Shown one piece after another: positions 4,108 through 24,117 of a DNA stretch of 64,000 bases. The notes beneath the pieces were generated by a model. It did not search any database, was not told where the DNA came from, and was given only the letters and a program-made list of their open reading frames with translations. Source of the stretch: Pseudoalteromonas sp. (GTDB lineage Bacteria; Pseudomonadota; Gammaproteobacteria; Enterobacterales; Alteromonadaceae); contig NZ_JBFKMX010000001.1 of assembly GCF_041629635.1 (NCBI RefSeq), positions 7,863-71,862 on the forward strand. The letters run 5' to 3'. The translations under genes were made by a program, and so were the position numbers. Positions within the stretch are counted from its first letter, which is position 1, and the number at the start of each line of letters is the position of its first letter.

Positions 4108-4199
4108 ATTCGATTATCGAGTTTCATAAAGCTTTAAAACCTGCCTCTAATTTCTCACCCCGCGTCTACGAGAGAGATCTTTAATTATCGTTTGAGAAT

Positions 4200-4215
4200 T
4201 GGCGCTAATATTGCG
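4200..4215 (+). promoter_or_regulatory. sigma54 -24/-12 promoter
   Basis: TGGCGC-TAATA-TTGCG, exact GG-N10-GC spacing, intergenic. Confidence 0.65.
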
Positions 4216-4283
4216 ACATAACCTACAGAGTAGTGAAAAAATAGTGTTTTTCACATTTTGAAAACAAAATTCGTTAAATTGCG

Positions 4284-4296
4284 TTGCATTTTGCAA
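4284..4296. promoter_or_regulatory. LuxO-type enhancer box
   Basis: Perfect TTGCA-TTT-TGCAA palindrome, intergenic, just before the RBS of the gene at 4310. Confidence 0.7.
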
Positions 4297-4309: not shown

Positions 4310-5797
4310 ATGGTTTTTACGATAGCGCAAATTAAAAAGCTTATTTACCTCGCTTTGTATACTATTTACGAGCGCTGGCAGCTAATTATATTGCCAATTA
4401 TTATTGTGCCCATTGCTGTTATCGGGATTGCACTTAACAGTCCAAAGCAATTCACCAACCACGCGACCATTTTGATAGAAGAATCTGCTCTTCTGAACCC
4501 ATTTTTAGATGAATTAGAATTCTCCTTTGAGTTGTCTTCACGGATGGATGCATTACGTACCTTAGTACTGAGCCGAAAAAATTTAACAGGAGTTGTGAAA
4601 GAAGTTGGGCTGGTAAAAAACCTTGATAATCAGCTTGAAGTTGAAAAAATGCAAGAAAAACTGGCCAATGCAATCTCTATTTCTCTGGTGGGAGATGAGC
4701 TAGTGCGAATTCACTTCAAGTGGGAAAAACGTGAAGAAATGAAACCTGTGCTTGAAGCAATGGTAGAAAAGTTTATTGAACGTTTACTCGCACCAACAAA
4801 AACATCTCTCGATACCTCAGAAATCTTTTTGAAAAATCAGCTGGAAGAAATGCGCGTCCAGCTAGAGGTAGCCGAAGATAAGCTGGCAAAATTCAAACGC
4901 GATAATCGTGCTGCACTGCCCGAATTATTGAACATCAATCAAGACACTTTGGTTCGCTTAGAACAAAAAAAACAGCAAAAATTAGTGGATTTAAGTGGTG
5001 CAAAAGCACGATTAGCTACATTGAAAAAACAACTTGCCAAAGCGAATCCCGTAAAAGGCCGTTTAGTGGACAGTATCATGCGAATTGAAGCGGATATTGC
5101 GCTATTACTTACCCGATATACTGACCAACACAGTAAAGTCCAAGCAAAACTGCGTGAATTAGAAACTTTAAAAATACGCAAGCAAGAAATAGAAACCCAG
5201 TCGCAACCATTTGAAGAAGCGGACCTTGATTCATTGTGGCAAATTGCAAATAGTTTACCGTTGGGTGCCAACGCCAAAGACAGTGCGCTGTTAGTATCAC
5301 AACTTATTACTTTAGAAGAAGCTGAAAATCAAGTTGCACAACTGAAAGAAGAACTTGAGATGTTGTCTGAGCAGCTTTCTGAGATTTCCACTCATCTATC
5401 AAGTTCCAGTGAAATTGATAAAACATTGCGTCAATTACAACGAGATTATCAAGTAAAACAAACACTGTATTCCGAAATGCTCGAACGATATGAGATGTCG
5501 AAAGTAACGGGTCAATTGGTTCGGTACGAAGGGCCTGACAAAGTAAAAATAATTGAGCGCGCTTACAGCCCAACTACACCAATCAATCAGTCACTTGTTA
5601 TTAATATATTTTTGGGGGTAGTACTCGGGCTTTTTAGCGCTGCGGCACTGACATTTATCGCCATGATCACCGACTTTAGATTACGTGATAAAAGCATGAT
5701 TGAAGCAATATCAGGAAAACGCGTCTTAACAACATTACCTATTGTGAAAGATGTATCTCAGTACATCACATCGACTCATCGGAGGCACTATGAATAA
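4310..5797 (+). CDS. Polysaccharide chain-length determinant, GumC/Wzz-Wzc type (SypO-like)
   Basis: N- and C-terminal TM helices flanking a long periplasmic coiled coil; KIIERAYSPTTP before the last TM. Confidence 0.9.
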   Translation: MVFTIAQIKKLIYLALYTIYERWQLIILPIIIVPIAVIGIALNSPKQFTNHATILIEESALLNPFLDELEFSFELSSRMDALRTLVLSRKNLTGVVKEVGLVKNLDNQLEVEKMQEKLANAISISLVGDELVRIHFKWEKREEMKPVLEAMVEKFIERLLAPTKTSLDTSEIFLKNQLEEMRVQLEVAEDKLAKFKRDNRAALPELLNINQDTLVRLEQKKQQKLVDLSGAKARLATLKKQLAKANPVKGRLVDSIMRIEADIALLLTRYTDQHSKVQAKLRELETLKIRKQEIETQSQPFEEADLDSLWQIANSLPLGANAKDSALLVSQLITLEEAENQVAQLKEELEMLSEQLSEISTHLSSSSEIDKTLRQLQRDYQVKQTLYSEMLERYEMSKVTGQLVRYEGPDKVKIIERAYSPTTPINQSLVINIFLGVVLGLFSAAALTFIAMITDFRLRDKSMIEAISGKRVLTTLPIVKDVSQYITSTHRRHYE

Positions 5798-8672: not shown

Positions 8673-8716
8673 TTGCAAAATGCAACAAGTAAATAAACTT
8701 CTGTTGCATTTTGCTA
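8673..8716. promoter_or_regulatory. Tandem LuxO-type enhancer boxes
   Basis: Perfect TTGCA-AAA-TGCAA (8673-8685) and TTGCA-TTT-TGCTA (8704-8716), centres 31 bp apart (about 3 helical turns). Confidence 0.75.
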
Positions 8717-8767
8717 TAATTCTTATCAGTTAACTTGTAACTAATTGAAATATTAATATATTAATTT

Positions 8768-8783
8768 TGGCATTGTATTTGGT
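8768..8783 (+). promoter_or_regulatory. Putative sigma54 promoter with variant -12
   Basis: TGGCAT-TGTAT-TTGGT: consensus -24, correct spacing, GG instead of GC at -12; downstream of the tandem boxes and 35 bp before ATG 8818. Confidence 0.55.
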
Positions 8784-8817
8784 TGTAATTAATCATAGTC
8801 ACAAAGAGGATTAGATT

Positions 8818-9144
8818 ATGAACAACCAACTACCAACAAAAGAACAAGACAACACACTAACAATTGAACTTCCTCACGATTTTTCAGGCTTGAATGTCGA
8901 CAAATATCGCGAACATTTTGAGTGTTTCGCGGCAACGCAACACGATGCTATTGTACTTGATTTTAGTAACACGGAGTTTATTGATTCATCGGGTATTGGC
9001 GCCATGGTTTTTTTGTTTAAACGAATTGAAAAGCGTGGCATCTCAATGATGGTAATGGACGTTACGGGTCAACCTGAAAAGTTAATGAAGCTGTTACGTG
9101 TCGACTCTACTATTCCATTTATTACTTCTGCTCCACTCATTTAA
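8818..9144 (+). CDS. STAS-domain anti-sigma-factor antagonist (SypA-like)
   Basis: IVLDFSNTEFIDSSGIGAMV with the phosphorylatable Ser; GAGGA RBS. Confidence 0.9.
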   Translation: MNNQLPTKEQDNTLTIELPHDFSGLNVDKYREHFECFAATQHDAIVLDFSNTEFIDSSGIGAMVFLFKRIEKRGISMMVMDVTGQPEKLMKLLRVDSTIPFITSAPLI

Positions 9145-12093: not shown

Positions 12094-12800
12094 AAATTAT
12101 TCCCAAACAGTATCAAGAGTTAGAAGTTATTTTTGATGCAATTAATCGAGAAAATGCACGCTGTATTGCGTTTGCTTCTCCATATGGACACGCTGGGGCT
12201 ACCTCTCTCGCTGTAAGTGTGGCAAGGCGCTTAAGTGGTCGTAATGAACGAGTGTTAGTAATCGATTTAAATACTTTCCATCCAATGTCTGACAAGGACT
12301 TGATAAGCATGCCAAACTCTTTGGCAAAATGGTCTTTTGTTGATATTAGTTGCCAATTGAATGCGCAAGTGATTGATAATTTTTACTTCTTAAGTATTAC
12401 TCAGCTACAAGATTTGACCTTAGTACGTGAAAAGGATGTATTCAACACAGCCATTTTGATGCTAAAACAAGAGTTTGATTATATTTTGTTTGATATGTCA
12501 CCGATTTGTAAAAAGCATCATGCGAATTTTCCTCTGCATTTAATAATTTCGGTTACAGATTTACTGTTATTAGATATTTCGCTTGGTAAAACGACACAAG
12601 ACACGTTAGATGCTGTAATTAATGAACTAGAGCAAGTAAATTGTAAACGTTATGAAATCGTAGTAAGTCAGATCTTTATGCCTCCCTTAGGTGATTGTTT
12701 AATTAAGAGTATCAATAGGCGATGTTATAAACTACCAAAACTGAGGCAATTTTTAACTAATTTAGTTAACAAACAGCATTGGTTATTCACTGGAGTATAA
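12090..12800 (+). CDS. BY-kinase/ParA-like P-loop protein (SypD-like), Walker A lacks Lys
   Basis: ASPYGHAGATSLA, VLVIDLN, FDYILFDMSP. Confidence 0.7.
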   Translation: MKIIPKQYQELEVIFDAINRENARCIAFASPYGHAGATSLAVSVARRLSGRNERVLVIDLNTFHPMSDKDLISMPNSLAKWSFVDISCQLNAQVIDNFYFLSITQLQDLTLVREKDVFNTAILMLKQEFDYILFDMSPICKKHHANFPLHLIISVTDLLLLDISLGKTTQDTLDAVINELEQVNCKRYEIVVSQIFMPPLGDCLIKSINRRCYKLPKLRQFLTNLVNKQHWLFTGV

Positions 12801-12802
12801 CT

Positions 12803-14272
12803 ATGAATGTATTGTTTTATCGTCGTTTCAGTTTAATCTGGTCAACTTTACATTCGGTGCGAGAAACGCTATTGACGCTGTTGGCTAAACTCGATGTTGA
12901 AAGTGAAGAGATTGATAACACAGGCTTAGTAGTGACGGAATATCTGACGAATTTAATACGTCATAGTGAAGGAGAAGATCAGGCTGTGACGTTAGTGATT
13001 GGTCGTACTTTAAATGCTATCAGGATTGAACTTGTTGACCCAACAGACTACTTTCATCCTACATTGTCTCGGTCGCATGCTACAGATATTGTTGATGGTG
13101 AGCTGCGTGAGGGAGGAATGGGACTTGCCTTGATAGCTCATTACTTTCCTGACTTTAATTATGTTTCTGAAGAAGGAAAAAATCATTTTAGTTTTGCGTT
13201 GTCACTTAAAAAAATTAAAAATCGAATTGTAATAATTGATGATGAAAATGCTAGTTTACAGCTGATCAAAGCGTTTTTAGAAAATGAATATGAATGTCAT
13301 GCATTCACAGATGAGCATGATGCTTATCAGTATTTAATGTCACACAATGTTGACCTTTTACTTATTGATATGAACTTAAATGCAATGTTAGCTGATGAAT
13401 TTATATCTAACATTAAACAATTAGAGCATCTAAATAATATAGGTATAGTCGTGATTTCGGGTGATAGCAGCCGAGAAACTATGCTCAAAGCACATTTATG
13501 CGGAGTAGATGATTATTTGATAAAACCTGTTAAAAAACAGCAACTTGAATTAGTGTGTGAACGGGTTAAAAGTCGCTGTGTTTCACGTTCGGTTAGTAAT
13601 GCTTGCACGGGTAATTCGGGTAAAAATACGGTGATAAATTGCGGCCAATTTAAAGTTATCCCGTATGGGAATGTGGTAATAGGGAGCGGTGGTGATGTGT
13701 TAATTCATCACACTACGGATAACAAGAACATTGTTTTCTTTGGTGATGTGATGGGACATGGAGCAACGGCAAATCGTGTTGCATTACAACTCAAGGGGTT
13801 TATAAAAGGGTTATTACAGTCCTCTTACCATTCGCTTGACGTATTTGTTAACTTTTTTGCGACGAGCATAGTTCAACAAGACTTTATGCAGCAAAGCCTC
13901 GTTACCTTTATTGCATTGGAAATATCGGGGGATCAGATCCGACTTGTTAATGCAGGACACCCCCTTCCGATCGTAATATCCAAAATACAAGGAGTGCGAA
14001 GTGTGTGCACATCCCAGCCTTTAGTAGGGCTTGTTTCAAACTATGTATATCAAAGTGAATTGATCCCCTTCTTGACAGGAGAATCATTGCTCTTAGCGAC
14101 AGATGGTTTCTTTGAAAACCATGAAAATTATGATGAACTAACACAATTAGTGAATGCGGTATACAGTACTTCAAGTCTTGAAAACTTATCTGACACAAAT
14201 GACTTTTGGTACAAAAGTTTACCTAGATTATCAAAAGAAATTGACGATTCGTCTCTCCTGGTACTTAATTAG
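12803..14272 (+). CDS. RsbW-like Ser kinase / receiver / PP2C phosphatase protein (SypE-like)
   Basis: TEYLTNLIRH and EGGMGL (HATPase); IIDD..LLLID..IKP (REC); GGD, GDVMGHG, TDG, DD (PP2C); start at ATG 12803 behind GGAG. Confidence 0.85.
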   Translation: MNVLFYRRFSLIWSTLHSVRETLLTLLAKLDVESEEIDNTGLVVTEYLTNLIRHSEGEDQAVTLVIGRTLNAIRIELVDPTDYFHPTLSRSHATDIVDGELREGGMGLALIAHYFPDFNYVSEEGKNHFSFALSLKKIKNRIVIIDDENASLQLIKAFLENEYECHAFTDEHDAYQYLMSHNVDLLLIDMNLNAMLADEFISNIKQLEHLNNIGIVVISGDSSRETMLKAHLCGVDDYLIKPVKKQQLELVCERVKSRCVSRSVSNACTGNSGKNTVINCGQFKVIPYGNVVIGSGGDVLIHHTTDNKNIVFFGDVMGHGATANRVALQLKGFIKGLLQSSYHSLDVFVNFFATSIVQQDFMQQSLVTFIALEISGDQIRLVNAGHPLPIVISKIQGVRSVCTSQPLVGLVSNYVYQSELIPFLTGESLLLATDGFFENHENYDELTQLVNAVYSTSSLENLSDTNDFWYKSLPRLSKEIDDSSLLVLN

Positions 14273-14307
14273 AAAGGGATTTGTTAAATGTGATCAGGAG
14301 GTTGCCT

Positions 14308-15729
14308 ATGCCAAATAAGATTTTAATTGTTGAAGATACAGAATCACTTGCGCTTTTGTACCAGTCTTACCTGATCCCAACAGGCATGCACTCGGATATT
14401 GCGTTTACAGGGCAAGAAGCGCTTAATTATTTGGAAAAGAATAAACCCGATTTGATCATGCTGGATGTGATGCTACCGGACATGAGTGGCATGGATATTC
14501 TAGCACAGCTTTCCGTTAATGACCGTCCCAAAGTGGTGGTATTAACAGCTCATGCTAGTAAAGAAATGGCTGTTGATGCGATTCATTATGGTGCCGCAGA
14601 CTTTATTGAAAAACCCGTTGATGCAGAGCGCTTTCGTATTACTGTTAACAATGCTTTGAAACTCAATTCACTAAGTAAAACGGTAGAAAAATATCAATCT
14701 CGTTATGAAAATGGTCGCTTTTGTGAACTAATTGGCACTTCGGCACCGATGCAAACGGTATATCAAATCATTAGCAATTCAGCAAAAAGTAAAGCCACTG
14801 TGTTTATTACTGGTGAAAGTGGAACAGGTAAAGAGCTTTGTGCACGCGCAATTCACCAATGTAGTGACCGCAGTAAACACCCCTTTATAGCGATTAATTG
14901 TGCTGCAATCCCAAAAGATCTGATTGAAAGTGAAATATTTGGTCATGTAAAAGGCGCATTTACAGGAGCGACTAACAACCGTGAAGGTGCGGCAGGGATG
15001 GCTGATGGTGGTACGCTATTTCTTGATGAACTGTGTGAAATGGATTTAAACCTACAAAGTAAACTATTGCGCTTTATACAAACGGGTTGTTTCCAAAAAG
15101 TAGGTAGCGAACAACTGCAACAAGTGAATGTACGTTTTGTATGTGCGACTAACCGCGATCCATGGCAGGAGGTACAAGCTGGGCGCTTTAGAGAAGATTT
15201 ATATTATCGCTTATATGTTATACCTGTGCAGTTGCCTCCGTTGCGCCAACGGGGTCGGGATGTCATTCAAATTGCAGAAGCGTTATTTGCACGTATTGCA
15301 AAAGAAGAAGGGCAAGCGTTTGATGGATTAAGTGATGATGCAAAACAACACCTAATGTCTTATAGTTGGCCTGGAAATGTGCGTCAACTGGAAAATATGA
15401 TTCGTAATACGGTGGTGTTGAATAATACCGCATGGATAGAAAAACAGATGTTTCCCCCTTTTCCACAAAGTCACGTGTCGCAAGAACCCTTTATGGATGA
15501 GAGCATGAGTGTGTCTGAGCAACTATCTACGCCTAGTTTTGAAACCAATAATTTACTTAGAAGCTCAGATATAGAGCCTTTATGGCTAGTTGAAAAACGC
15601 TACATTGAAAAGGCAATAGCAGCGTGTAACGACAATGTACCAAAAGCAGCAGCATTATTAGATATCAGTCCATCTACAATCTACCGCAAAATGAAAACAT
15701 GGGAGCAAATGTCTGCACAGCTCTATTAG
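14308..15729 (+). CDS. luxO: sigma54-dependent response regulator, LuxO-like
   Basis: REC, GESGTGKE, GAFTGA, HTH; NCAAIPKDLIESE, DELCEMDLNLQSKLLRFIQTG, ATNRDPWQEVQAGRFREDLYYRLYVIP and ISPSTIYRK closely follow Vibrio LuxO as recalled; AGGAGG RBS. Confidence 0.8.
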   Translation: MPNKILIVEDTESLALLYQSYLIPTGMHSDIAFTGQEALNYLEKNKPDLIMLDVMLPDMSGMDILAQLSVNDRPKVVVLTAHASKEMAVDAIHYGAADFIEKPVDAERFRITVNNALKLNSLSKTVEKYQSRYENGRFCELIGTSAPMQTVYQIISNSAKSKATVFITGESGTGKELCARAIHQCSDRSKHPFIAINCAAIPKDLIESEIFGHVKGAFTGATNNREGAAGMADGGTLFLDELCEMDLNLQSKLLRFIQTGCFQKVGSEQLQQVNVRFVCATNRDPWQEVQAGRFREDLYYRLYVIPVQLPPLRQRGRDVIQIAEALFARIAKEEGQAFDGLSDDAKQHLMSYSWPGNVRQLENMIRNTVVLNNTAWIEKQMFPPFPQSHVSQEPFMDESMSVSEQLSTPSFETNNLLRSSDIEPLWLVEKRYIEKAIAACNDNVPKAAALLDISPSTIYRKMKTWEQMSAQLY

Positions 15730-16730
15730 TTTAAATAAAGTTTAATTAACTGAATATATTGTGATTTTCCTGCATAGAATTGATGAAGTTGGCTGGTTGC
15801 ATTTTTGACCAGATAATTACGCTCTTGCTGGCTCATTAAAAGCGCCTCTCTTAATTTACTCACCAATGCTTGGTGCGATTGGTCGTCCGTTAATAGTCCA
15901 GTGTGGTTGTTTATGATAACAGAATCGATAGCACCTACTGCATTTGCGATACATAACACTTTATTGTCAATAGCTTCAAGCAAGACCATAGGTAACCCTT
16001 CCTCTCTAGAACAAATTACTAATATATCAACGTGCTGCCATAATTTTTGAGTCGATTTATGACCATGAAAAAGCGTATTGTTCGAAGCTTTTTTTTGTAA
16101 CTCAGCGATCATAGGTCCATCGCCATAAAGGTGAAATTTAATGTTCTCTTGATGTTGAAAATGAGTGGCCAATTTAATAAAACGTTCGGGTGCTTTTTCA
16201 TATGCTAAACGTCCAACAAAAGCGATATTCAGTTGTTTTTCGGGCTCTTTTGGATGTGGGTTTTTAGGCAAGATAAAATTAGCAATAAACTGGCCATTTT
16301 TAACCTTACTTTTGAGTTGATTTGCCACGACTAAGTTTTTTGAAAAGCCGCTGGTTATTTGGTCGAGCCAATTATAGAGCCTTATTCTGCCCGAACCTTT
16401 TTCGCCAGCATGATAGGTGGAAATACAAGTGTGACCAGTTATTTTACATGTAAGTCTACCAATAATACCTGCTTTGTAACCATGGGTATGTAATACATAG
16501 TTGTCACTATGTTTGAGGAAATGAAAAAGATCTAATGCACTACCGCCTAAACATTGATAAGGGCAGTTAAGCTCTGTCAATAAATCATAGAGCTGATGAT
16601 TGAGATGATCTTGATAAAAAAGAACACTTGTAGGCACATGTTTCGATTGCATCAATTTAACTAATTCAATAATGTGCGATTCAATGCCGCCAAATAGGCT
16701 AGAATCTAGAAAGAGTACAAGATTTCGCAT
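15726..16730 (-). CDS. GT4 glycosyltransferase (SypH-like)
   Basis: FGGIESH, HTHGYKAG, FVGRLAYEKAP, SREEGLPMVLLEA; start moved to ATG 16730 behind AGGAG. Confidence 0.9.
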   Translation of the reverse strand: MRNLVLFLDSSLFGGIESHIIELVKLMQSKHVPTSVLFYQDHLNHQLYDLLTELNCPYQCLGGSALDLFHFLKHSDNYVLHTHGYKAGIIGRLTCKITGHTCISTYHAGEKGSGRIRLYNWLDQITSGFSKNLVVANQLKSKVKNGQFIANFILPKNPHPKEPEKQLNIAFVGRLAYEKAPERFIKLATHFQHQENIKFHLYGDGPMIAELQKKASNNTLFHGHKSTQKLWQHVDILVICSREEGLPMVLLEAIDNKVLCIANAVGAIDSVIINNHTGLLTDDQSHQALVSKLREALLMSQQERNYLVKNATSQLHQFYAGKSQYIQLIKLYLN

Positions 16731-16755
16731 ATTTATCTCCTCTAAAAGGAACCCT

Positions 16756-17073
16756 ATGTTTAACCAAACAACCATAAAACAACTGGAAGCCGATGTTGGC
16801 CAAGAAGTACTGATCAAACTTTTTGCCGTTTTTGCTCAAGAAGCGACAAAACTAACCGAGCAACTTATGGCTTGCACATCTCTTGATGAAGAATGTGTAC
16901 GTTTAAGCCATAGCCTTAAAAGCTGCGCTCGTTCCTATGGTGCGGATCAGCTAAGTGCTCTTGCTGAAACCCTTGAAAATCTTGCAAAAAATAACGATGC
17001 AAGCTTCTTTAATGAACGTGCGCTTTTAGGTGGCATACTGGATGCGACCATGTCTGCAATGCCAATGCTTTAA
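16756..17073 (+). CDS. luxU: Stand-alone Hpt phosphotransfer protein, LuxU-like
   Basis: SHSLKSCARSYGADQL Hpt motif; N-terminus FNQTTIKQLEADVG resembles Vibrio LuxU; AAGGA RBS before ATG 16756. Confidence 0.75.
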   Translation: MFNQTTIKQLEADVGQEVLIKLFAVFAQEATKLTEQLMACTSLDEECVRLSHSLKSCARSYGADQLSALAETLENLAKNNDASFFNERALLGGILDATMSAMPML

Positions 17074-17960
17074 TGCACTTTTGCATTTAGGCTTAAAGAG
17101 TGCTCATTAGTGTTGGGTAACCACTGTTCAATAATATGTTTAAGCTGAGATTTATTATGCTTTCCGATTGATTGTTCTTTTTCTATGGCGCGTAAATCCA
17201 TGGCCTCAAATGCATCTGGAGTGAGACATACATCAAAAAACTTGTAGCCTAAGATATGCATAGCCTGGTCAAGTTGCTCTGTGGCAGCAAGTTGGTCAAC
17301 AGGGCTATGTTCAGGCGTTAAGTTTTCAATAAAGATGCGACAACCAGTGGTATTACATAATGCTTTTTGAATATCCCATAACATTAAGGGCGGCATTACA
17401 CTGGTTAATAAACTACCAGGACCTAATAAGATTAAATCAGCACAGTTTATTGCCTCAATGGCTTGCTGGTTAGCACTGACCTGTTTGGATAAACGCATGT
17501 TATTAGGAAAATGACTAAGTGTGTCAATATTGCATTCACCAAAAACCTCCTCTCCTGTAGAGGTTGTAGCAACTAAATCAACAGGCGTATTTGTCATTGG
17601 CAAAATAGTATGTTCAACCCCTAACATGCTAGAGAAAATTTTAACTGCATCGTTTGCGTTGTGTGTAATTTGGCACAGTGCGCACAGTAGAATATTGCCA
17701 AAACTGTGACCCTTCAAATCATTGTCTAATTCAAAGCGTTGTTCGGACAAGATTGATAACATCTGGTCTTGGCAGGCTAACGCACTAACGCAACGGCGAA
17801 TATCACCTAAAGCAATTTGACTTGGGTCTTGACGCAAACGTCCGGTGCTGCCGCCGTTGTCAGTTGTAGTTACGATTGCTGTCAGTGCACAAGGTATGTT
17901 TTTTAAAGCGCTTAACACTTGCGATAGACCATGTCCCCCGCCAATACACACAATATTCAT
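17070..17960 (-). CDS. yvcK: YvcK/GlmR (CofD-like) UDP-binding protein
   Basis: IGGGHGL, TTTDNGGSTGRLR, GDIRRC, GHSFGNI, LGPGSLLTS; start moved to ATG 17960. Confidence 0.9.
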   Translation of the reverse strand: MNIVCIGGGHGLSQVLSALKNIPCALTAIVTTTDNGGSTGRLRQDPSQIALGDIRRCVSALACQDQMLSILSEQRFELDNDLKGHSFGNILLCALCQITHNANDAVKIFSSMLGVEHTILPMTNTPVDLVATTSTGEEVFGECNIDTLSHFPNNMRLSKQVSANQQAIEAINCADLILLGPGSLLTSVMPPLMLWDIQKALCNTTGCRIFIENLTPEHSPVDQLAATEQLDQAMHILGYKFFDVCLTPDAFEAMDLRAIEKEQSIGKHNKSQLKHIIEQWLPNTNEHSLSLNAKVH

Positions 17961-17994
17961 ATTTCGCCCCCCCATCGGTGTGTATTGAAAAGGA

Positions 17995-18010
17995 TTCAAA
18001 TTGTGTACCA
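17995..18010 (-). promoter_or_regulatory. Putative sigma54 promoter of yvcK with variant -12
   Basis: Minus strand TGGTAC-ACAAT-TTGAA, GG-N10-GA. Confidence 0.5.
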
Positions 18011-18051
18011 AGATATAAAACGCGAAAACTAGGGAAAACATTAATTTTTAT

Positions 18052-18064
18052 TTGCATTTTGCAA
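18052..18064. promoter_or_regulatory. LuxO-type enhancer box between yvcK and the hybrid kinase
   Basis: Perfect TTGCA-TTT-TGCAA; reverse complement shares the 16-mer GCATTGCAAAATGCAA with 8670-8685. Confidence 0.75.
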
Positions 18065-18130
18065 TGCAGCTTGCGGGGTCATTCGCTAAACTTAATTTTA
18101 ACCTTCGACCAAAACTCACAAAGAGGTGTC

Positions 18131-20140
18131 ATGGGAAAACTTAGTGCCAATGCTACATTGCAATTACTAGAAGATCTTATTAGCAGTAAAAATGCATTTG
18201 AATTACTGATTAAATTGCAAATAGGCCTTCAGCCTATTGTCAGATTTTCAGAGATCTTGATTTTGACCCAAGATCATTCGCAACTGTGTGCTGTGGCAAG
18301 CACTTACGAACCCTTATCGGGGGCGTGTTTATTTAATAAAGAAGAGCTTTTTGAAAGCGGTTTTGAAGAACAGATATTAGTGGTCAATAACACTGAGTTA
18401 CCAGCAGATTGGCAATTACCAAACACAGGTAATAAAGCGGCTTTAATTCCCATTAATTTTGCTGGGCGGAAAGGTATATATATATTATTTTTGACGGAAG
18501 AGATGGTTGATGATTCACAGGTAAAAAGTAATCTAATGGCTAGTCTTATCGTTTTTCGTCTAGCTTTTTATCAATTAGATCAACAACATCAAACTTCCCA
18601 AATGCTACTCGACCGAACTTTTGCGCTAACGCAGAGCCAGCAACGGTTTCAAGCTTATGCCGAACTTGCTTCTGATTGGTTTTGGGAAACGGATGAAAGC
18701 ATGTGCTTTACCTATCTTTCTTTTACTGAACAAAGTAAACCCAGTAACTTTGAGAACTTTTTATACAAAAGTCCGTTAAATATTCGCAGTGACAGCGAAA
18801 GTACTCAATGTAAAAAGTGGGAACACTTTTTACATCTTGTGCGTAAACATTTAGACATTATTGATTTTGAGTTTGAGGCAATAAACAACCAAGGTCACAC
18901 GGTTTGGATATCAATCAGTGGTAAAGCAAAATTCAATGTGGACAATAGCTTTGCGGGGTATTTGGGCATCGCTAAAGACATCAGTTTCTCTAAGCAGCGT
19001 GAATCAGATTTAAAAATGGCTAAAGAGAAAGCTGAAAGTGCTAACGCTGCAAAATCACATTTTCTTGCTGTTATGTCTCATGAAATTCGTACGCCGATGA
19101 ATGCAATTCTGGGTATATTAGAGTTACTTGAAGACACAGACCCGAATGATAAACAACGCGAGTTAATTGAATTTATGCGTGGCAGTGCCCAGTTGTTGCA
19201 GGGGGTTATCAGTGATACATTGGACTTTGCAAAAATTGAATCAGGCACCCTTGCATTAGAAAGTAGTAATATTAATTTTCATAAGCTAATCAAGAATTTA
19301 GTTCAGCAATTCGAAACCCAAGCGATAAAAAAAGGCATCCATTTTAATGCTATTGTGGGTAATGGTGTACCCGAGCAGATTAATACCGATGGTGTTCGTT
19401 TGTCTCAGGTCTTACTTAATTTGTTGGGAAATGCATTCAAATTTACCTTAACGGGAGAGGTTTGCCTTGCGGTTAATCGCAGTGATACCGAATTGTTGAT
19501 ATCGGTAAAGGACAGCGGCATAGGTATCGAGCAAAGCCAAGTAGATAGTTTGTTTGAACCGTTTTCACAGTTGCATGATAAACAAATTGGTCGACAGCAA
19601 GGAGTTGGTCTTGGTTTAAGTATCACTAAACGCTTGCTTGAATTGATGAATGGGAAAATAGAATGCCACAGTGAAATTGGTGTGGGCACTGAATTTTCTG
19701 TTGCTATTCCATTGCAGTTGGAAGTAACCGATGAAAACCCAGAAGGGTTGGAATCTAAAAATATCAGTACACCGAGTTATCATATTTTGGTCGCTGAAGA
19801 TAACCCAGCAAACCAATTTATCATTAAAGCTATTTTGGAAAAACGCAACCATACAGTGTCACTTGCGGATAATGGTGAGCAAGCTGTTGCCGCAGTTAAA
19901 AAATCGCAATTTGATTTGGTGCTAATGGATATGGTGATGCCTGTAATGGATGGTGTAGTAGCGGCACGCACGATAAGAACAGAACTTGGCAGAATGGCAC
20001 CGCCTATCATCGCGTTGACTGCAAATGCTGGGTTAGCTGACAAAACCAAATGTTTAAATGCGGGCATGTTGGATGTACTGACAAAACCATTAAACAGCGC
20101 TTTGTTAGACGAAAAAATAAGGACCCTTGTCGGGACGTAG
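18131..20140 (+). CDS. Soluble hybrid sensor histidine kinase (GAF-like, PAS, HisKA, HATPase, REC)
   Basis: ELASDWFWETD PAS, MSHEIRTPMN H-box, N/G boxes, AEDNPANQ..LMDMVMP receiver; no TM helix and no Hpt; start moved to ATG 18131 behind GAGG. Confidence 0.9.
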   Translation: MGKLSANATLQLLEDLISSKNAFELLIKLQIGLQPIVRFSEILILTQDHSQLCAVASTYEPLSGACLFNKEELFESGFEEQILVVNNTELPADWQLPNTGNKAALIPINFAGRKGIYILFLTEEMVDDSQVKSNLMASLIVFRLAFYQLDQQHQTSQMLLDRTFALTQSQQRFQAYAELASDWFWETDESMCFTYLSFTEQSKPSNFENFLYKSPLNIRSDSESTQCKKWEHFLHLVRKHLDIIDFEFEAINNQGHTVWISISGKAKFNVDNSFAGYLGIAKDISFSKQRESDLKMAKEKAESANAAKSHFLAVMSHEIRTPMNAILGILELLEDTDPNDKQRELIEFMRGSAQLLQGVISDTLDFAKIESGTLALESSNINFHKLIKNLVQQFETQAIKKGIHFNAIVGNGVPEQINTDGVRLSQVLLNLLGNAFKFTLTGEVCLAVNRSDTELLISVKDSGIGIEQSQVDSLFEPFSQLHDKQIGRQQGVGLGLSITKRLLELMNGKIECHSEIGVGTEFSVAIPLQLEVTDENPEGLESKNISTPSYHILVAEDNPANQFIIKAILEKRNHTVSLADNGEQAVAAVKKSQFDLVLMDMVMPVMDGVVAARTIRTELGRMAPPIIALTANAGLADKTKCLNAGMLDVLTKPLNSALLDEKIRTLVGT

Positions 20141-20238
20141 CATGCACATTAATTAGCTCTGTTAGTGATTGCGTTTAACCTAGCAGAGTAGATCTAAAGC
20201 AAAATCATTTGAACACCCATACCTTAATTTTCATCTAG

Positions 20239-20412
20239 TTATGGTTCAGCATATTCTTCCTTAAGTTGTTGTAAAATGCGTTCTTGCTGTTTAAAGCTAA
20301 AGATCACTTTACGGCGGTAATCGATAGAACGATAGAACAGTTCTAAATCTATAAAGGGTCTCATAGCTTTTAATTTCTGGTCGATTGAAAACTGCTGTTG
20401 AGCGTTACGCAT
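20239..20412 (-). CDS. Unannotated 57-aa protein MRNAQQQFSIDQKLKAMRPFIDLELFYRSIDYRRKVIFSFKQQERILQQLKEEYAEP
   Basis: Translated by hand; ATG 20412, GGAG RBS 7 nt upstream, sigma54 promoter and enhancer boxes upstream; below the 60-aa ORF-track cutoff. Confidence 0.7.
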   Translation of the reverse strand: MRNAQQQFSIDQKLKAMRPFIDLELFYRSIDYRRKVIFSFKQQERILQQLKEEYAEP

Positions 20413-20446
20413 ATCATATCTCCAAATTTGCTCTTCAATTCTCTAA

Positions 20447-20462
20447 AGCAAAATATGACCCA
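20447..20462 (-). promoter_or_regulatory. sigma54 -24/-12 promoter of the 57-aa ORF
   Basis: Minus strand TGGGTC-ATATT-TTGCT, GG-N10-GC. Confidence 0.65.
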
Positions 20463-20512
20463 AATTTAACCTGTTGAATTTCTTTTACTAATATTTTCGT
20501 GAAGGGCTGTAA

Positions 20513-20537
20513 ATTGATTTTGCAATGCAAAATGCAA
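20513..20537. promoter_or_regulatory. Abutting pair of LuxO-type boxes
   Basis: ATTGA-TTT-TGCAA overlapping ATGCA-AAA-TGCAA by 1 nt; centre of the better box about 70 bp upstream of the -24 element. Confidence 0.65.
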
Positions 20538-20863
20538 AAAATTTAAGAGGACATACTAAAAATAAGATAAGTTGATATGCAATTAAAACGTCTAAGTTAA
20601 GCTTGTATTTATATCTATAATAACGATAAAAAGGAATTTATATGCACCATGTGATACAAGTAAAAAGCTTTAACACGCAGAGGTGCTCATTGCGTGACGG
20701 GATGTGTTCAGGGAATAACTGATAGATATAATTTAAGGAATGTTCTTTTTGAGTTTTACTAAGCGAGTTTACATCTTACTGGGGATGAATCTATCTAAAT
20801 ATCTTTCAATAAAAACACTCTAAAGAAGAGGGTACGTTGCACTAGCAAAATCATGATTATAAT

Positions 20864-22070
20864 TGTACTAGCTCAGACTTGATCTGACAGTTACCCGTTT
20901 TTCAATCGGTGACTGTCAGTTTAGATTTGAGCTAAATTCTTTTCTGCCCAAATGCGTTTTCCATCTTCTAATGTTGCCAATGGCGTTCTGCCACAGCACA
21001 TTTTTCCTTGATGAGTTCGGTCATTATTGTAATAAACCATCCATTCGTCCAGATCCTTTTGTAATTCTTCTAACGAGCTATACAGCTTTTTACGGAACGT
21101 TACCTGATAAAACTCATTCAATATCGTCTTATGGAATCGCTCACAGATACCGTTTGTCTGCGGTGACATGGCTTTTGTTTTTGTGTGATCGATATCATTA
21201 ATCGCCAGATATAACTGGTAATCGTGATGCTCGACTTTACCGCAATACTCTGTACCTCTGTCTGTGAGTATTCGCAGCATTGGCAGCTCATGCTGCTCGA
21301 AGTAAGGTAGAGCTCTATCGTTCAGTATGTCCGCTGCTGTAATTGGCTTTTGGTGGTGTAGAGCTTCGCGAATGCTACTTTGCTGTACGTATCAACGAAC
21401 GTTTGCTGGTAGATACGTCCAACACCTTTGAGATTACCCACGTAAAATGTATCTTGTGAGCCAAGGTATCCAGGGTGAGCTGTTTCGATTTCTCCGCAAG
21501 CTTCATCATCGTTTTTCTTTTTCTCAAGCGCTGCGATTTGGCTGTCAGTTAAGATAATGCCTTCGTTAGCTACTTTGTCTTCTAAGGCTTTCAGCCGTTT
21601 CTTTAAGTTCTCTAAGTCATGGCGTAACCATATTGAACGAACACCACTGCCAGATACGAACACACCTTGCTTCCTAAGCTCGTTACTGGTTCTGTGTTGG
21701 CCGTGGGCTGGATAATCCACTGCATACTTGATTACGGCTTGTTCTGTTACTTCATCAACTCTGTTTTTGATGTTTGGCGACCTACGACTTTTATCAATTA
21801 ACGCATCAAGTCCACCATCTTCTACTAGCTCTTGATATCGATAAAATGTGTCTCGTGAAACGCCCATGACTTTACAGGCTTTAGAAACTTTACCTAATTC
21901 TTCAGCAAGATTAAGTAAACCAGTTTTGTGTTTTATAATTGGGTTGTTAGTATGCAACATGAGAGTTACCACCTTTTTGGTTGTTTTGATTTAAGATTCA
22001 GCACCTTTATCAAAACGGGTAACTCTCAATTTTTCAAATCGAAATGTCAGATCAAGTCGAGACTAATTCA
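20864..22070 (-). mobile_element. IS481-family insertion sequence (ISSod13-like), 1207 bp
   Basis: Terminal IRs TGTACTAGCTCAGACTTGATCTGACA (20864-20889) and the reverse complement of 22045-22070 (TGAATTAGTCTCGACTTGATCTGACA); 7-bp direct repeat TTATAAT at 20857-20863 and 22071-22077. Confidence 0.9.
20921..21960 (-). pseudogene. IS481-family transposase with a 1-nt deletion
   Basis: MLHTNNPIIKHKTGLLNLAEELG..., GSQDTFYVG, LTDRGTEYCG, QTNGICERFHKT; frame breaks near 21347 where the expected ACCAAAACGCCA (TKTP) reads ACCAAAAGCCA. Confidence 0.85.
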
Positions 22071-23579
22071 TTATAATGATTCAAAAAACGCGATTTCAAA
22101 CTCTGTGCCTTTGCCTAACTCGCTATTTACAGTCACCTTTGCATTATGCTGTTGTAGAATACTATAAGAAATAGCCAAACCCAGTCCGGTGCCTTCACCT
22201 GGTGCTTTGGTTGTAAAAAATGGGGTGAAAATATCCGCCAAATGCGAAGGGTCAATACCTTCTCCTTGATCTTTTACCGTTACAATTATCTTATTTCGAT
22301 CTTTTTTACTGCTTATTGTAAGTGTACCGCCCTCTGGCATTGCGTGCTTGGCATTTACAAACAGGTTTATAAATACTTGCTGTAATTTCCCTGCGTTGCC
22401 AAGAATACTTGCTTCGGATAGTAGATCTTTAACTACCTGATGTTGATATTTGAATTCGTTACTCACCACATTCAGTGACTTTTCAATCACCAAGTTTAAA
22501 TCAATGCTGTCGAGTTCATCATTGTCCATGCGTGAAAAAGTACTTAAATCAGACACTATGTCTCTTACCCTGATAAGCCCTTGCACGGATGCAGCAAGAA
22601 TATCTTCACTATCTGTTAGTAAAAAATCACCGTCTAGAGTCTGCCAATGGCCCAGCATTTGCTTAACTTTGCTTTGATTGTCTAGGTTGGTATTTGTTAG
22701 TGGTGAAACAATTTCTGAAAAATCATTAAAATAATCTCGCATGGTATCAAGGTTACTTAGGACGAATCCAATGGGGTTATTAATTTCATGTGCTACTCCG
22801 GCAGCTAATTGCCCGAGCGATGCCAACTTTTCTTGTTGCAGTAATTGTTGCTGTGTTTGTTCTAACATTTTATTACTGGTTTCAAGCTCGATTAAGCGCT
22901 CTTGCAGCGTTTCTTCAGCTCGTTTACGTTCAAATGCCACTGCTAACATACTGCGAGAAGATTCCAACGTTTGTAGCTTTACAATATTGATATCTTCTTG
23001 CGATTCGTAAAGTAATATGACAAGGCCAACCGCTTTACCTGACGGTAAATCAAGGGTATAAACAGGAACAATTACGCTATAGACAAAGTGTGCGTTTGCA
23101 TCTTTAGAAATTTCGCTATGCTCAAATATTTGTGATTCGTTTTCATTCAAAACGTGATGATAGAGTTTGTTGTGATTAAGCTGACTCAGTACCTCTTTAA
23201 GGTGCTTTGCTAAAATCTTAGATTCTCGTTCGGACGCTTGGCAATAAGATTGAAATTGATGCAACGAAAGATCCCCATGAATTTCCACAAAAAAATTGTG
23301 TGCAACACTTATAAAATTGTTTGTACGCTCTAGGTAATTTGAAATAATTTTGTGTAAATTGGGTTGTCGCCATGTTTCAGCTAGTAAACCAGTTAAAAAT
23401 TCAAGCTGTTCCTGCTGAGAAGCGATTTCTTGCTTTGTAAGGTTAACCGCTTCTTCTTTCTGGTAGAGCTCTCGAGAAGAGTCTTCAAGTTGCTTTTCGG
23501 CCTCTTTGCGCGCCAAGCGTTCGCGCATTAAAATACGCTCTAGTGCGTCGATTTTGCCCTGGGCGTTAAAATTATTCAT
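22071..23579 (-). CDS. H-NOX-associated sensor histidine kinase
   Basis: N-terminal coiled coil [30 protein letters not shown]-box, [25 protein letters not shown]; overlaps the H-NOX stop codon. Confidence 0.9.
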
Positions 23580-24117
23580 TAAATGTTATTTCAATTTCAC
23601 AACAATCAGCACCTTGGTGCATACAGCTATTCTGCGAGACAGAGACTGATTCTTTAAAGTGTTTTGCGGCACCAAGGATTAGACCCTCAGACAAAAAACA
23701 AAGCTTACGAGGTGAACGGTAAAGCATGGTTAAGTTATCACCAGAATCTCCTCCGTAGCTAAATTCAGGTAATTGCGCTTCTTTATCAAGCTTTTTAACT
23801 TCAACGTGAATCAGCTCATCTACCATCATTAAAAATGTGCGAAGAGAAGGTGCATTTTGAGCTTCATCAGGTGCCAGAGACATCAATAGTGGGAATAAGT
23901 ACTCACCAAAAGTCCTAACTAGGTCGGGAATGGGAACTTCAAGTTGTTCTGATAAGTAACCGATAATGGCGAAAAGTTCAACGTCTTGGTACTGCTTGGT
24001 TGAGGTATAGATCCCATGCGACTCAAGTGTATTGTTGGTCAGCGCTTCATCCCATAATTGATAACCATGGTTTTCTTCTACAAATTCCTGTAGTGCATTA
24101 AAAATTGCTCCCTTCAT
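23572..24117 (-). CDS. Heme NO/O2-binding (H-NOX/HNOB) protein
   Basis: MKGAIF start, FGEYLF, proximal His in IHVEV, conserved Pro, YRSPR (YxSxR) motif, C-terminal CMHQGADCC. Confidence 0.9.
   Translation of the reverse strand: MKGAIFNALQEFVEENHGYQLWDEALTNNTLESHGIYTSTKQYQDVELFAIIGYLSEQLEVPIPDLVRTFGEYLFPLLMSLAPDEAQNAPSLRTFLMMVDELIHVEVKKLDKEAQLPEFSYGGDSGDNLTMLYRSPRKLCFLSEGLILGAAKHFKESVSVSQNSCMHQGADCCEIEITFNE

What the first reader, a model, noticed from the sequence alone, without database searches (positions are those of the whole stretch)
20239..20537. Unannotated 57-aa protein with its own sigma54 promoter and LuxO-type boxes
Seen: complete expression unit on the minus strand: boxes (20513-20537), TGGGTC-N5-TTGCT (20462-20447), GGAG RBS, ATG 20412, stop 20239. 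Spacing is typical of a sigma54 gene, and the product looks helical with an aromatic/basic core (FYRSIDYRRKV). Inference: a dedicated small-protein output of the relay, where Vibrio would have a Qrr sRNA. As it converges on the kinase gene, it may be a feedback modulator. No function recognised.
Basis: partly seen in the sequence, partly recalled or inferred. Interest (0 to 1): 0.75.

Follow-up and report, generated by a model that had tools for sequence, protein, structure and literature searches.

The report
Tail-less small protein, LuxO-type sigma54 target
The 57-codon frame is a real small-protein gene from an uncharacterised Pseudoalteromonas family that appears to be switched on by the biofilm locus's LuxO/SypG-like activator through a sigma-54 promoter, but this genome's copy has lost the family's invariant C-terminal "LGYN" tail.

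Summary

The ORF is a real gene. About 45 distinct loci in Pseudoalteromonas, plus a few metagenomic relatives, encode 65-73 aa homologues. Synonymous sites are saturated while dN is 0.06-0.10. No Pfam, NCBIfam, PDB or literature match was found.

The control region is conserved. Every lineage except the chromosome-1 clade keeps a sigma54 promoter at -50 to -62 and a TTGCA-W3-TGCAA box at -125 to -134 from the ATG. This holds even though the genomic contexts are unrelated. Those genomes are exactly the ones with the closest orthologues (71% identity or more) of the window's LuxO/SypG-type activator (14281-15729).

The boxes cluster in the syp-like locus: 4 of the 7 perfect copies in the 4-Mb genome lie there. 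No Qrr is found in the genus.

New here: every intact relative ends in [F/C/I][V/I]LGYN. The window copy has a nonsense codon, a 5-bp deletion and all four motif codons changed. Yet codons 1-57 stay under purifying selection on the window's own branch (omega about 0.1).

Function is unknown. A cytoplasmic connector protein is the best guess. The proposed kinase-feedback role has no support. No transcript data could be obtained.

The parts
20513..20537 (-). Upstream activator site: TTGCATTTTGCAT (12/13 to the LuxO-type consensus TTGCAWWWTGCAA) followed by an overlapping TGCAA half-site.
   Evidence: It is conserved as TTGCATTTTGCAA / TCGCATTTTGCAA at -125 to -131 in spongiae-group orthologues. 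It is at -133/-134 in the G035 and phenolica groups and at -127 in a Colwelliaceae-like metagenomic member.
20447..20462 (-). Sigma54 (-24/-12) promoter TGGGTC-N5-TTGCT. The predicted start is near 20436, giving a 5'UTR of about 24 nt.
   Evidence: Orthologues carry TGGTTC-N5-TTGCT, TGGCTT-N5-TTGCT, TGGCAC-N5-CTGCT or TGGCAA-N5-ATGCT at -50 to -62 from the ATG. rpoN is present in the genome.
20420..20423 (-). Shine-Dalgarno GGAG, 7 nt before the ATG.
   Evidence: TGGAGA is conserved in all five spongiae-group sequences.
20239..20412 (-). CDS of 57 aa: the helical body of the LGYN-tail small-protein family, ending at a lineage-specific TAA.
   Evidence: On the window's own branch there are 11 synonymous and 5 nonsynonymous changes, omega about 0.10, p=4e-6. 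The AF2 model of a full-length relative has helices at 10-16, 23-28 and 30-54.
20205..20238 (-). Decayed remnant of the ancestral C-terminal tail (relatives: CVREDYDCVLGYN*). It has a 5-bp deletion, and the LGYN codons now read W-V-F-K before the ancestral TGA.
   Evidence: Alignment and sequences. About 12 of 37 aligned bases are window-specific. That rate is indistinguishable from the synonymous rate of the body.
14281..15729 (+). LuxO/SypG-type sigma54 activator (REC-AAA+-HTH_8), the probable trans-activator of the small gene.
   Evidence: Pfam domains. It scores 667 bits against the NCBIfam LuxO model (cut-off 800) against 382 bits for NtrC. It is the only such paralogue in the genome; the next best hit is 38% identical. 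Orthologue identity tracks presence of the box-type small gene.
18131..20140 (+). Convergent soluble hybrid histidine kinase (HisKA-HATPase-REC). It is a neighbour only.
   Evidence: This arrangement is shared by G001 and G018 only.
20876..22058 (-). IS element with 17-bp terminal inverted repeats and a split transposase. It is inserted between the hnoK stop (22071) and the small gene's control region.
   Evidence: It is absent at this position in G001. G018 has two other ORFs there.

Best explanation
Window 20239-20412 (-) is a real monocistronic small-protein gene. It belongs to a small, uncharacterised family found in Pseudoalteromonas and a few neighbouring Alteromonadales. The family has a roughly 55-aa three-helix body with the conserved block LF-x-S-x-DYR-x-K, then a variable disordered linker, then an invariant C-terminus [F/C/I][V/I]LGYN-COOH.

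Transcription is from a sigma54 promoter. The activator is most likely the single LuxO/SypG-type enhancer-binding protein of the adjacent syp-like exopolysaccharide locus. It would bind a TTGCA-W3-TGCAA site about 75 nt upstream of the -24 element. The same site type precedes the sypA-like operon and other operons of the locus. The gene is therefore an output of that phosphorelay (hybrid kinase, LuxU-like Hpt, activator), in a genus without a recognisable Qrr sRNA.

The protein is cytoplasmic: it has no signal peptide. Inferred, not shown: it acts as a small connector or modulator that binds a partner protein, with the tail serving in intact relatives as a docking peptide.

In this genome the tail was lost early on the lineage, through a TAA nonsense codon, a 5-bp deletion and neutral drift of the remnant. 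The helical body has stayed under purifying selection, so the tail-less product probably still functions.
For: Coding:
- 20 of 37 genus genomes hold an open homologous frame, and 0 of 24 other families in the order do.
- 37 loci were found in genome contigs and 74 protein clusters. A search of 1.84 billion representatives found only about 11 clusters, all with the tail where the protein is complete.
- dN is 0.06-0.10 with saturated dS, and omega is 0.04-0.10 for close pairs.

Promoter and UAS:
- The phylogenetic footprint among the five spongiae-group sequences is limited to the box, the -24/-12 element and the RBS.
- 14 of 15 distinct loci outside the chromosome-1 clade have sigma54 at -50 to -62 (-40 where the start was called 7 codons too early) and a box at -125 to -134 (-112 in that locus).
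- This includes a member at about 30% identity whose neighbour gene is Thalassotalea/Colwellia-like.
- The genes are unlinked to the activator in G010, G027 and G035.

Activator:
- It scores 667 bits against the LuxO model and is the only such protein in the genome.
- 4 of the 7 perfect boxes in the genome lie in the syp-like locus, in intergenic positions. One is followed after 54 nt by a sigma54 promoter driving a glycosyltransferase gene. Two sit upstream of the sypA-like gene.
- The five best activator orthologues in the genus (71-90% identity) are exactly the genomes with box-type small genes.
- V. fischeri SypG and LuxO both act through TTGCAWWWTGCAA sites (PMC10162802).

No Qrr: with 4 Qrr copies found in one relative from the same order as a positive control.

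Tail loss with a constrained body.
Against: - No transcript, rpoN-dependence, binding or translation data could be obtained.
- The promoter has G-T at positions 4-5 of the -24 element instead of C-A.
- The largest clade of the family (chromosome 1, 28 distinct loci) lacks the boxes. Regulation by the activator is therefore not universal in the family.
- The partner and the biochemical role are unknown. No conserved neighbour gene exists, and the AF2 model is of moderate confidence (pLDDT 68) with no fold match.
- Loss of an otherwise invariant motif could mean the allele is non-functional despite the constraint signal. That signal rests on 16 substitutions.
- The nonsense codon could not be checked against reads.
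Confidence: 0.6

Rival explanations
1. The window copy is a decaying pseudogene. Loss of the invariant LGYN tail abolished function, and the upstream IS insertion reflects a locus in decay. The intact promoter and body would be residual.
For: - Every complete relative keeps the tail, even at about 25-30% body identity.
- The window has a nonsense codon, a 5-bp deletion and all four motif codons changed.
- The 57-aa product is seen on only one contig in the 5.8-billion-protein collection.
- An IS element lies 340 nt upstream of the box.
Against: - On the window's own branch, codons 1-57 show 11 synonymous against 5 nonsynonymous changes (omega about 0.10, p=4e-6).
- The ex-tail has drifted at the synonymous rate, so the truncation is old relative to that branch, yet the body stayed constrained.
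- The box, the -24/-12 element, the RBS and the ATG are all intact.
Confidence: 0.2
2. The family encodes precursors of a ribosomally made, modified or exported peptide, with a helical leader and an invariant C-terminal core ending in Tyr-Asn. This would resemble precursors whose C-terminal residues are modified. The window copy would be a dead precursor.
For: - The layout is a conserved helical N-part, a variable linker and an invariant extreme C-terminus.
- The tail is disordered in the model.
Against: - None of six different genomic contexts holds a maturase, an RRE protein, a peptidase-transporter or an immunity gene.
- In the chromosome-1 clade the only recurrent neighbour is an M3 peptidase, which fits vertical synteny.
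- The N-part is more strongly constrained than is usual for a mere leader, and it stays constrained here without any core.
Confidence: 0.08
3. The functional product is the RNA: a Qrr-like or dual-function sRNA under LuxO-type control. The ORF would be incidental or secondary.
For: - The promoter architecture is that of Vibrio qrr genes (PMC10162802).
- The genus lacks a Qrr.
- The transcript is short and monocistronic.
Against: - No Rfam match at E up to 10.
- Folding energy is no better than shuffles, z +0.3.
- Substitutions are overwhelmingly synonymous, and protein similarity persists to about 30% identity with no stops.
- There is no strong intrinsic terminator.
Confidence: 0.05
4. A chance ORF with chance motif matches.
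For: Single-motif counts in the window are near expectation.
Against: Conservation of the frame, the promoter, the box and their spacing across lineages and genomic contexts.
Confidence: 0.01

Closest known systems
Vibrio qrr genes (Qrr sRNAs, Rfam RF00378) under LuxO/sigma54, and under SypG in V. fischeri
   Same: A short monocistronic unit with a sigma54 -24/-12 promoter and TTGCAWWWTGCAA activator site(s) roughly 70-130 nt upstream. The activator is from the LuxO/SypG clade and is fed by a hybrid kinase through an Hpt relay (PMC10162802).
   Different: The product is a conserved protein, not an sRNA. There is no RF00378 match, no RNA structure signal and no strong terminator. The gene is not divergent from the activator gene; it lies 4.7 kb away, and is unlinked in other lineages.
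V. fischeri syp locus and the SypG regulon
   Same: The window holds sypA- (inferred from the read sequence), sypB-, sypC-, sypD- and sypE-like genes followed by a sigma54 response regulator, glycosyltransferases and an associated H-NOX/kinase pair. Activator sites lie upstream of the operons of the locus.
   Different: The sites here are the LuxO-type palindrome rather than the reported SypG motif TTCTCANNNTGMDWN. The Hpt is a separate LuxU-like protein next to yvcK. No small-protein target of SypG is described in the papers found.
Small connector or anti-adaptor proteins induced by a two-component system that act by binding another regulator (for example Sda, PmrD, IraP). This is a functional analogy from general knowledge.
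   Same: A small helical cytoplasmic protein with its own regulated promoter and no enzymatic domain.
   Different: No sequence or fold similarity was detected. No partner is known. The invariant C-terminal pentapeptide has no counterpart in those proteins.
RiPP precursors with a functional extreme C-terminus (mycofactocin MftA, microcin C MccA type). From general knowledge.
   Same: A conserved N-part with an invariant C-terminal residue string ending the protein.
   Different: No maturase, RRE or exporter gene occurs in any context. No homology was found.

Membership tests
LGYN-tail small-protein family (unnamed; Pseudoalteromonas 'hypothetical protein', e.g. P0052, P0002) | Homologous helical body with invariant P19, L25, S29, Y32 and R33, inside the block LF-x-S-x-DYR. 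| tested here: met
   Alignments A1 and A2. The window copy is 82-87% identical to spongiae-group members and scores E 2e-19 against the profile.
LGYN-tail small-protein family (unnamed) | C-terminus [F/C/I][V/I][L/I]GYN followed by the stop codon. | tested here: not met
   The window stops after ...EEYAEP. The homologous codons downstream read V-W-V-F-K after a 5-bp deletion. By descent it is a truncated member.
Sigma54-dependent promoter | GG and GC elements with the spacing of TGGCAC-N5-TTGCW, at a suitable distance from the start codon and conserved in orthologues. | tested here: met
   TGGGTCATATTTTGCT at 20462-20447. Orthologous elements lie at -50 to -62. rpoN is present.
Sigma54-dependent promoter | Transcription requires RpoN and an enhancer-binding protein. 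| not testable with these tools
No experiment was possible.
LuxO/SypG-type regulon (UAS TTGCAWWWTGCAA) | A consensus UAS upstream of the sigma54 promoter. | tested here: met
   12/13 match at 20525-20537, about 75 nt upstream of the -24 element. Perfect or 12/13 copies occur in orthologues. 4 of the 7 perfect genomic copies lie in the syp-like locus.
LuxO/SypG-type regulon | A cognate activator of the LuxO/SypG clade is present. | tested here: met
   The 14281-15729 product scores 667 bits against NF041946 LuxO. This is below the equivalog cut-off of 800, so it is not called LuxO proper. NtrC scores 382 bits. It is the only such paralogue in the genome.
LuxO/SypG-type regulon | The activator binds the site and activates transcription. 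| not testable with these tools
   Inference rests only on motif clustering and on co-variation with the activator orthologue.
Qrr sRNA (RF00378) | A match to the Qrr covariance model (conserved seed and stem-loops). | tested here: not met
   No Qrr hit in 19500-21500 at E up to 10. The best hit in the whole genome is 19.8 bits against a cut-off of 50. Nothing over the cut-off in 37 genus genomes.
RiPP precursor | A maturase, RRE or export gene in the neighbourhood. | tested here: not met
   Six contexts were inspected and none holds such genes.

The most novel reading that the evidence does not exclude
In Pseudoalteromonas and neighbouring Alteromonadales, a LuxO/SypG-type phosphorelay would have, besides EPS operons, a dedicated protein output in place of a Qrr sRNA. 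This would be a roughly 70-aa helical protein whose invariant C-terminal LGYN peptide docks onto a downstream regulator. It would link the relay to other behaviours at the protein level. The tail-less allele here would be a naturally rewired, or dominant, variant.
Probability: 0.2. Interest if true: 0.8.

Novelty: new variant of a known kind. Interest (0 to 1): 0.55.

Why it matters
LuxO-type activators are textbook regulators whose only well-established direct targets in Vibrio are the qrr sRNA genes. SypG additionally drives the syp operons.

Here a genus that has the activator but no Qrr keeps a small-protein gene under the same promoter and UAS architecture. This holds across unlinked genomic contexts and down to about 30% protein identity. 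That points to a conserved but unstudied output of these relays.

It also supplies testable material:
- a defined family with a sharply defined C-terminal motif;
- a natural tail-less allele still under selection;
- a small predicted regulon (the syp-like operons, this gene, and a coiled-coil protein on another contig).

The result could show how biofilm or quorum-type relays signal without sRNAs.

Tried and rejected
- Rfam scan of the region at E up to 10: only sub-threshold noise such as miRNA models and psRNA2 inside the IS end.
- Qrr search in the own genome and in 60 relatives: none in the genus.
- RNA folding of the 3'UTR and the whole transcript: no better than shuffles.
- Generic terminator scan: nothing convincing behind the ORF.
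- Pfam on the window ORF, then on 23 members at E up to 1; NCBIfam; and a PDB profile search: nothing.
- AF2 followed by Foldseek against PDB: a helical model at pLDDT 68 with no match.
- Literature searches for 'VLGYN' and for Pseudoalteromonas with LuxO and sigma-54: nothing relevant.
- Earlier scan notes searched by sequence: none.
- Search for other proteins in the genome ending in LGYN, as possible competitors for a docking site: none.
- RiPP reading: no maturase in any context.
- Arrest or leader peptide regulating a downstream gene: rejected. In several lineages, including this one, no gene follows on the same strand.
- Kinase-feedback reading: rejected as unsupported, because the kinase neighbourhood is lineage-specific.
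Neither transcription nor the nonsense codon could be checked against reads.

Full report
**1. What is in the sequence**

Read on the minus strand, the elements are:
- TTGCATTTTGCAT at 20537-20525, a 12/13 match to TTGCAWWWTGCAA, overlapping a further TGCAA half-site that runs to 20513;
- TGGGTCATATTTTGCT at 20462-20447;
- GGAG at 20423-20420;
- ATG at 20412;
- a 57-codon frame ending in TAA at 20241-20239.

The frame converges on a soluble hybrid histidine kinase (HisKA-HATPase-REC, 18131-20140).

Taken singly, the motifs are not above chance in the window. Genome-wide the picture is different. The 4.03-Mb assembly has only 7 perfect TTGCAWWWTGCAA boxes against about 1 expected. Four of them lie in the roughly 20-kb syp-like locus. 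Only 7 box-plus-sigma54 composites exist on both strands.

**2. The neighbourhood**

The window carries a syp-like exopolysaccharide locus. It contains:
- a sypA-like gene starting at 8818 (identified from its position and read sequence; no domain search was run on it);
- OmpA-, Wza- and Wzc-like genes;
- a SypE-like protein (RsbW-REC-PP2C, 12779-14272);
- a REC-AAA+-HTH_8 sigma54 activator (14281-15729);
- a glycosyltransferase;
- a LuxU-like Hpt (16672-17073);
- yvcK;
- the hybrid kinase.

Then follow the small gene, an IS element (20876-22058, with 17-bp inverted repeats and a split transposase), hnoK/H-NOX (22071-24117) and a REC-HD-GYP gene.

The activator scores 667 bits against NCBIfam's Vibrio LuxO model. 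The equivalog cut-off is 800 and NtrC scores 382. It is the only protein of that type in the genome, the next best hit being 38% identical. rpoN is present.

Perfect boxes sit before the sypA-like gene (8673, plus a 12/13 copy at 8704), at 4284, and in the yvcK/kinase intergenic region (18052). One more lies just outside the window, 54 nt upstream of a sigma54 promoter that drives a GT2 gene.

In V. fischeri, SypG and LuxO both act through TTGCAWWWTGCAA sites at qrr1. The reported SypG site at the syp promoters is TTCTCANNNTGMDWN (PMC10162802). The boxes here are of the LuxO type.

**3. The ORF is a gene**

- A six-frame search found one open homologous frame in each of 20 of 37 genomes of the genus, and none in 24 other families of the order.
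- The genus is Pseudoalteromonas. The nearest relatives are P. spongiae and strains G4, SSM20 and P1-9.
- 74 protein clusters match a family profile. Those with a source name are called 'hypothetical protein' or carry plainly spurious names.
- A full HMMER pass over 1.84 billion representatives found only about 11 clusters.
- There is no Pfam, NCBIfam, PDB-sequence or fold match, and no literature.
- Among the five spongiae-group sequences, synonymous sites are saturated while dN is 0.06-0.10. The two close pairs give omega of 0.04 and 0.10.
- AlphaFold2 on a 23-sequence alignment gives helices at 10-16, 23-28 and 30-54 and a disordered tail at 55-70 (pLDDT 68).

**4.

Every complete relative is 65-73 aa and ends in [F/C/I][V/I][L/I]GYN-stop. 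This includes metagenomic members at about 25-30% identity.

The window copy stops 13 codons early. The differences from its nearest relatives (...AEP-CVREDYDCVLGYN*) are:
- TGC/AGC changed to TAA;
- a 5-bp deletion;
- the homologous LGYN codons now reading W-V-F-K before the ancestral TGA.

I assigned changes to the window's own branch wherever the two sister lineages agree with each other. Codons 1-57 then carry 11 synonymous and 5 nonsynonymous changes over 32 and 139 sites. That gives omega of about 0.10 (Fisher p=4e-6). The former tail has about 12 changes in 37 bases, a rate indistinguishable from the synonymous rate (p=0.8; the test was computed with 11 changes).

The tail was therefore lost early on this branch, and the body stayed under selection. 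The allele looks like a functional tail-less derivative rather than a dead gene. The sample is only 16 substitutions, and the assembly could not be checked against reads.

**5. The control region is conserved with the gene**

Within the spongiae group, the upstream alignment is conserved only at the box, the -24/-12 element and the RBS.

Across the family the pattern is as follows:

| Lineage | Distinct loci | Sigma54 promoter (from ATG) | LuxO-type box with at most 1 mismatch (from ATG) |
|---|---|---|---|
| spongiae group (5, incl. the window), G035 (1), phenolica group (8), one metagenomic member (1) | 15 | 15 of 15, at -50 to -62 | 14 of 15, at -125 to -134 |
| chromosome-1 clade | 28 | about 9 keep a TGGTTCAG..TTCGCT element at -126 to -145 | none |

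- In one phenolica-group locus the script called the start 7 codons early. It therefore reports -40 and -112 there.
- The metagenomic member is P0078 (locus L069). Its neighbour gene is 68% identical to Thalassotalea/Colwellia proteins.
- A further distant metagenomic member (P0077, L068) is not in the table. It has only a weak -12 element and a SypG-like half-site, read by eye.

Outside the chromosome-1 clade the genomic contexts differ:
- hnoK and the hybrid kinase in the spongiae group;
- ferritin and rpsF in G035;
- hypothetical genes in the phenolica group;
- AraC in L069;
- HD-GYP in L068.

In G010, G027 and G035 the gene lies on a different contig from the activator.

The five genus genomes with the closest activator orthologues (71-90% identity) are exactly the five other genomes with box-type small genes. 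Genomes whose orthologue is 62-68% identical have either the box-less chromosome-1 type or no family member.

This co-variation, together with the clustering of boxes in the syp-like locus, is the basis for naming the local LuxO/SypG-type protein as the activator. It is inference; no binding was shown.

**6. RNA alternative**

- No Rfam family matches the region.
- Qrr is absent from this genome (best 19.8 bits against a cut-off of 50). It is also absent from all 37 genus genomes, while one relative from the same order shows four copies above the cut-off.
- The transcript folds no better than shuffled sequence.
- The substitution pattern is that of a coding sequence.

The 'Qrr slot' analogy holds for the promoter architecture only.

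**7. Function**

The protein has no signal peptide, no enzymatic domain and no conserved neighbour. It consists of a constrained helical body, a variable linker and an invariant C-terminal pentapeptide.

The most economical reading is a small cytoplasmic connector or modulator, made when the relay is active, that binds a partner. In intact members the tail would act as a docking peptide. I give this mechanistic part about 35%. I give the regulatory part (a real gene, sigma54-dependent, in the regulon of the LuxO/SypG-like activator) about 80%.

The kinase-feedback idea has no specific support, because the kinase neighbourhood is confined to one lineage.

A RiPP-precursor reading is possible from the layout. 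It lacks any maturase in six contexts, and it is hard to square with continued selection on a core-less copy.

No other protein in this genome ends in LGYN.

**8. Verdict**

- New facts are the family and its LGYN hallmark, the tail loss with retained constraint, the conserved UAS and promoter geometry across unlinked contexts, the co-variation with the activator, and the absence of Qrr from the genus.
- This is a new variant of a known kind of circuit, with a product of unknown function.
- Interest is moderate to fairly high for people working on Vibrio-type quorum and biofilm relays. It is limited by the lack of expression data and by the aberrant allele in this particular genome.

Noticed in passing
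window 20876-22058: An IS element with 17-bp terminal inverted repeats. Its transposase is split into two ORFs (HTH_29 at 21322-21972 and rve_3 at 20921-21280). It is inserted 12 nt after the hnoK stop. G001 has nothing at this position, and G018 has two other small ORFs there. The hnoK-to-small-gene spacer is therefore a variable spot.
   Followed up: partly
G000 contig C158, about 4859-5100 (outside the window): A perfect box followed after 157 nt by a strong sigma54 promoter, TGGCACATCCCCTGCT. It drives a coiled-coil protein of unknown function (MGKQQNIKQP...). This is a further candidate member of the same regulon.
   Followed up: partly
G000:C1:6069-6123, about 1.8 kb before the window start: A perfect box, TTGCATTATGCAA, lies 54 nt upstream of CGGCACATACTTTGCG. 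It drives a GT2 glycosyltransferase gene, so the syp-like sigma54 regulon extends beyond the window.
   Followed up: partly
window 8673-8785: The sypA-like promoter has two boxes (8673 perfect, 8704 at 12/13). Its -24/-12 element is TGGCAT-N5-TTGGT, with GG instead of GC at -12.
   Followed up: no
window 4199-4296: A canonical TGGCGC-N5-TTGCG lies at 4200-4215. The perfect box at 4284 lies downstream of it, only 14 nt before the ATG of the GNVR/Wzz-like gene. This geometry is unusual. Either the enhancer lies downstream of the promoter or the box acts as an operator.
   Followed up: no
window 18052-18070: A perfect box plus an extra half-site, TTGCATTTTGCAATGCAGC, fills the 89-nt divergent spacer between yvcK (start 18041) and the kinase (start 18131). 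No canonically spaced sigma54 element lies between the box and either start codon.
   Followed up: no
loci L008-L014, L035, L036 (chromosome-1 clade of the family): These copies lack LuxO-type boxes. About nine of them keep TGGTTCAG-N-TTCGCT at -126 to -145, which resembles the spongiae-group -24/-12 element. It may be a vestigial sigma54 promoter or one with a long UTR. In this clade the gene lies about 220 nt upstream of an M3 peptidase gene on the same strand.
   Followed up: partly
window 17876-18130: The mechanical ORF for the hybrid kinase starts at TTG 17876 and overlaps yvcK. The likely start is ATG 18131, which has a GAGG RBS. That gives 669 aa, in line with 667 aa in G001.
   Followed up: partly
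G002:C461:3462-3571: A sub-threshold Qrr-model hit (36 bits, E 1.5e-4) in one Pseudoalteromonas genome. It was not examined.
   Followed up: no
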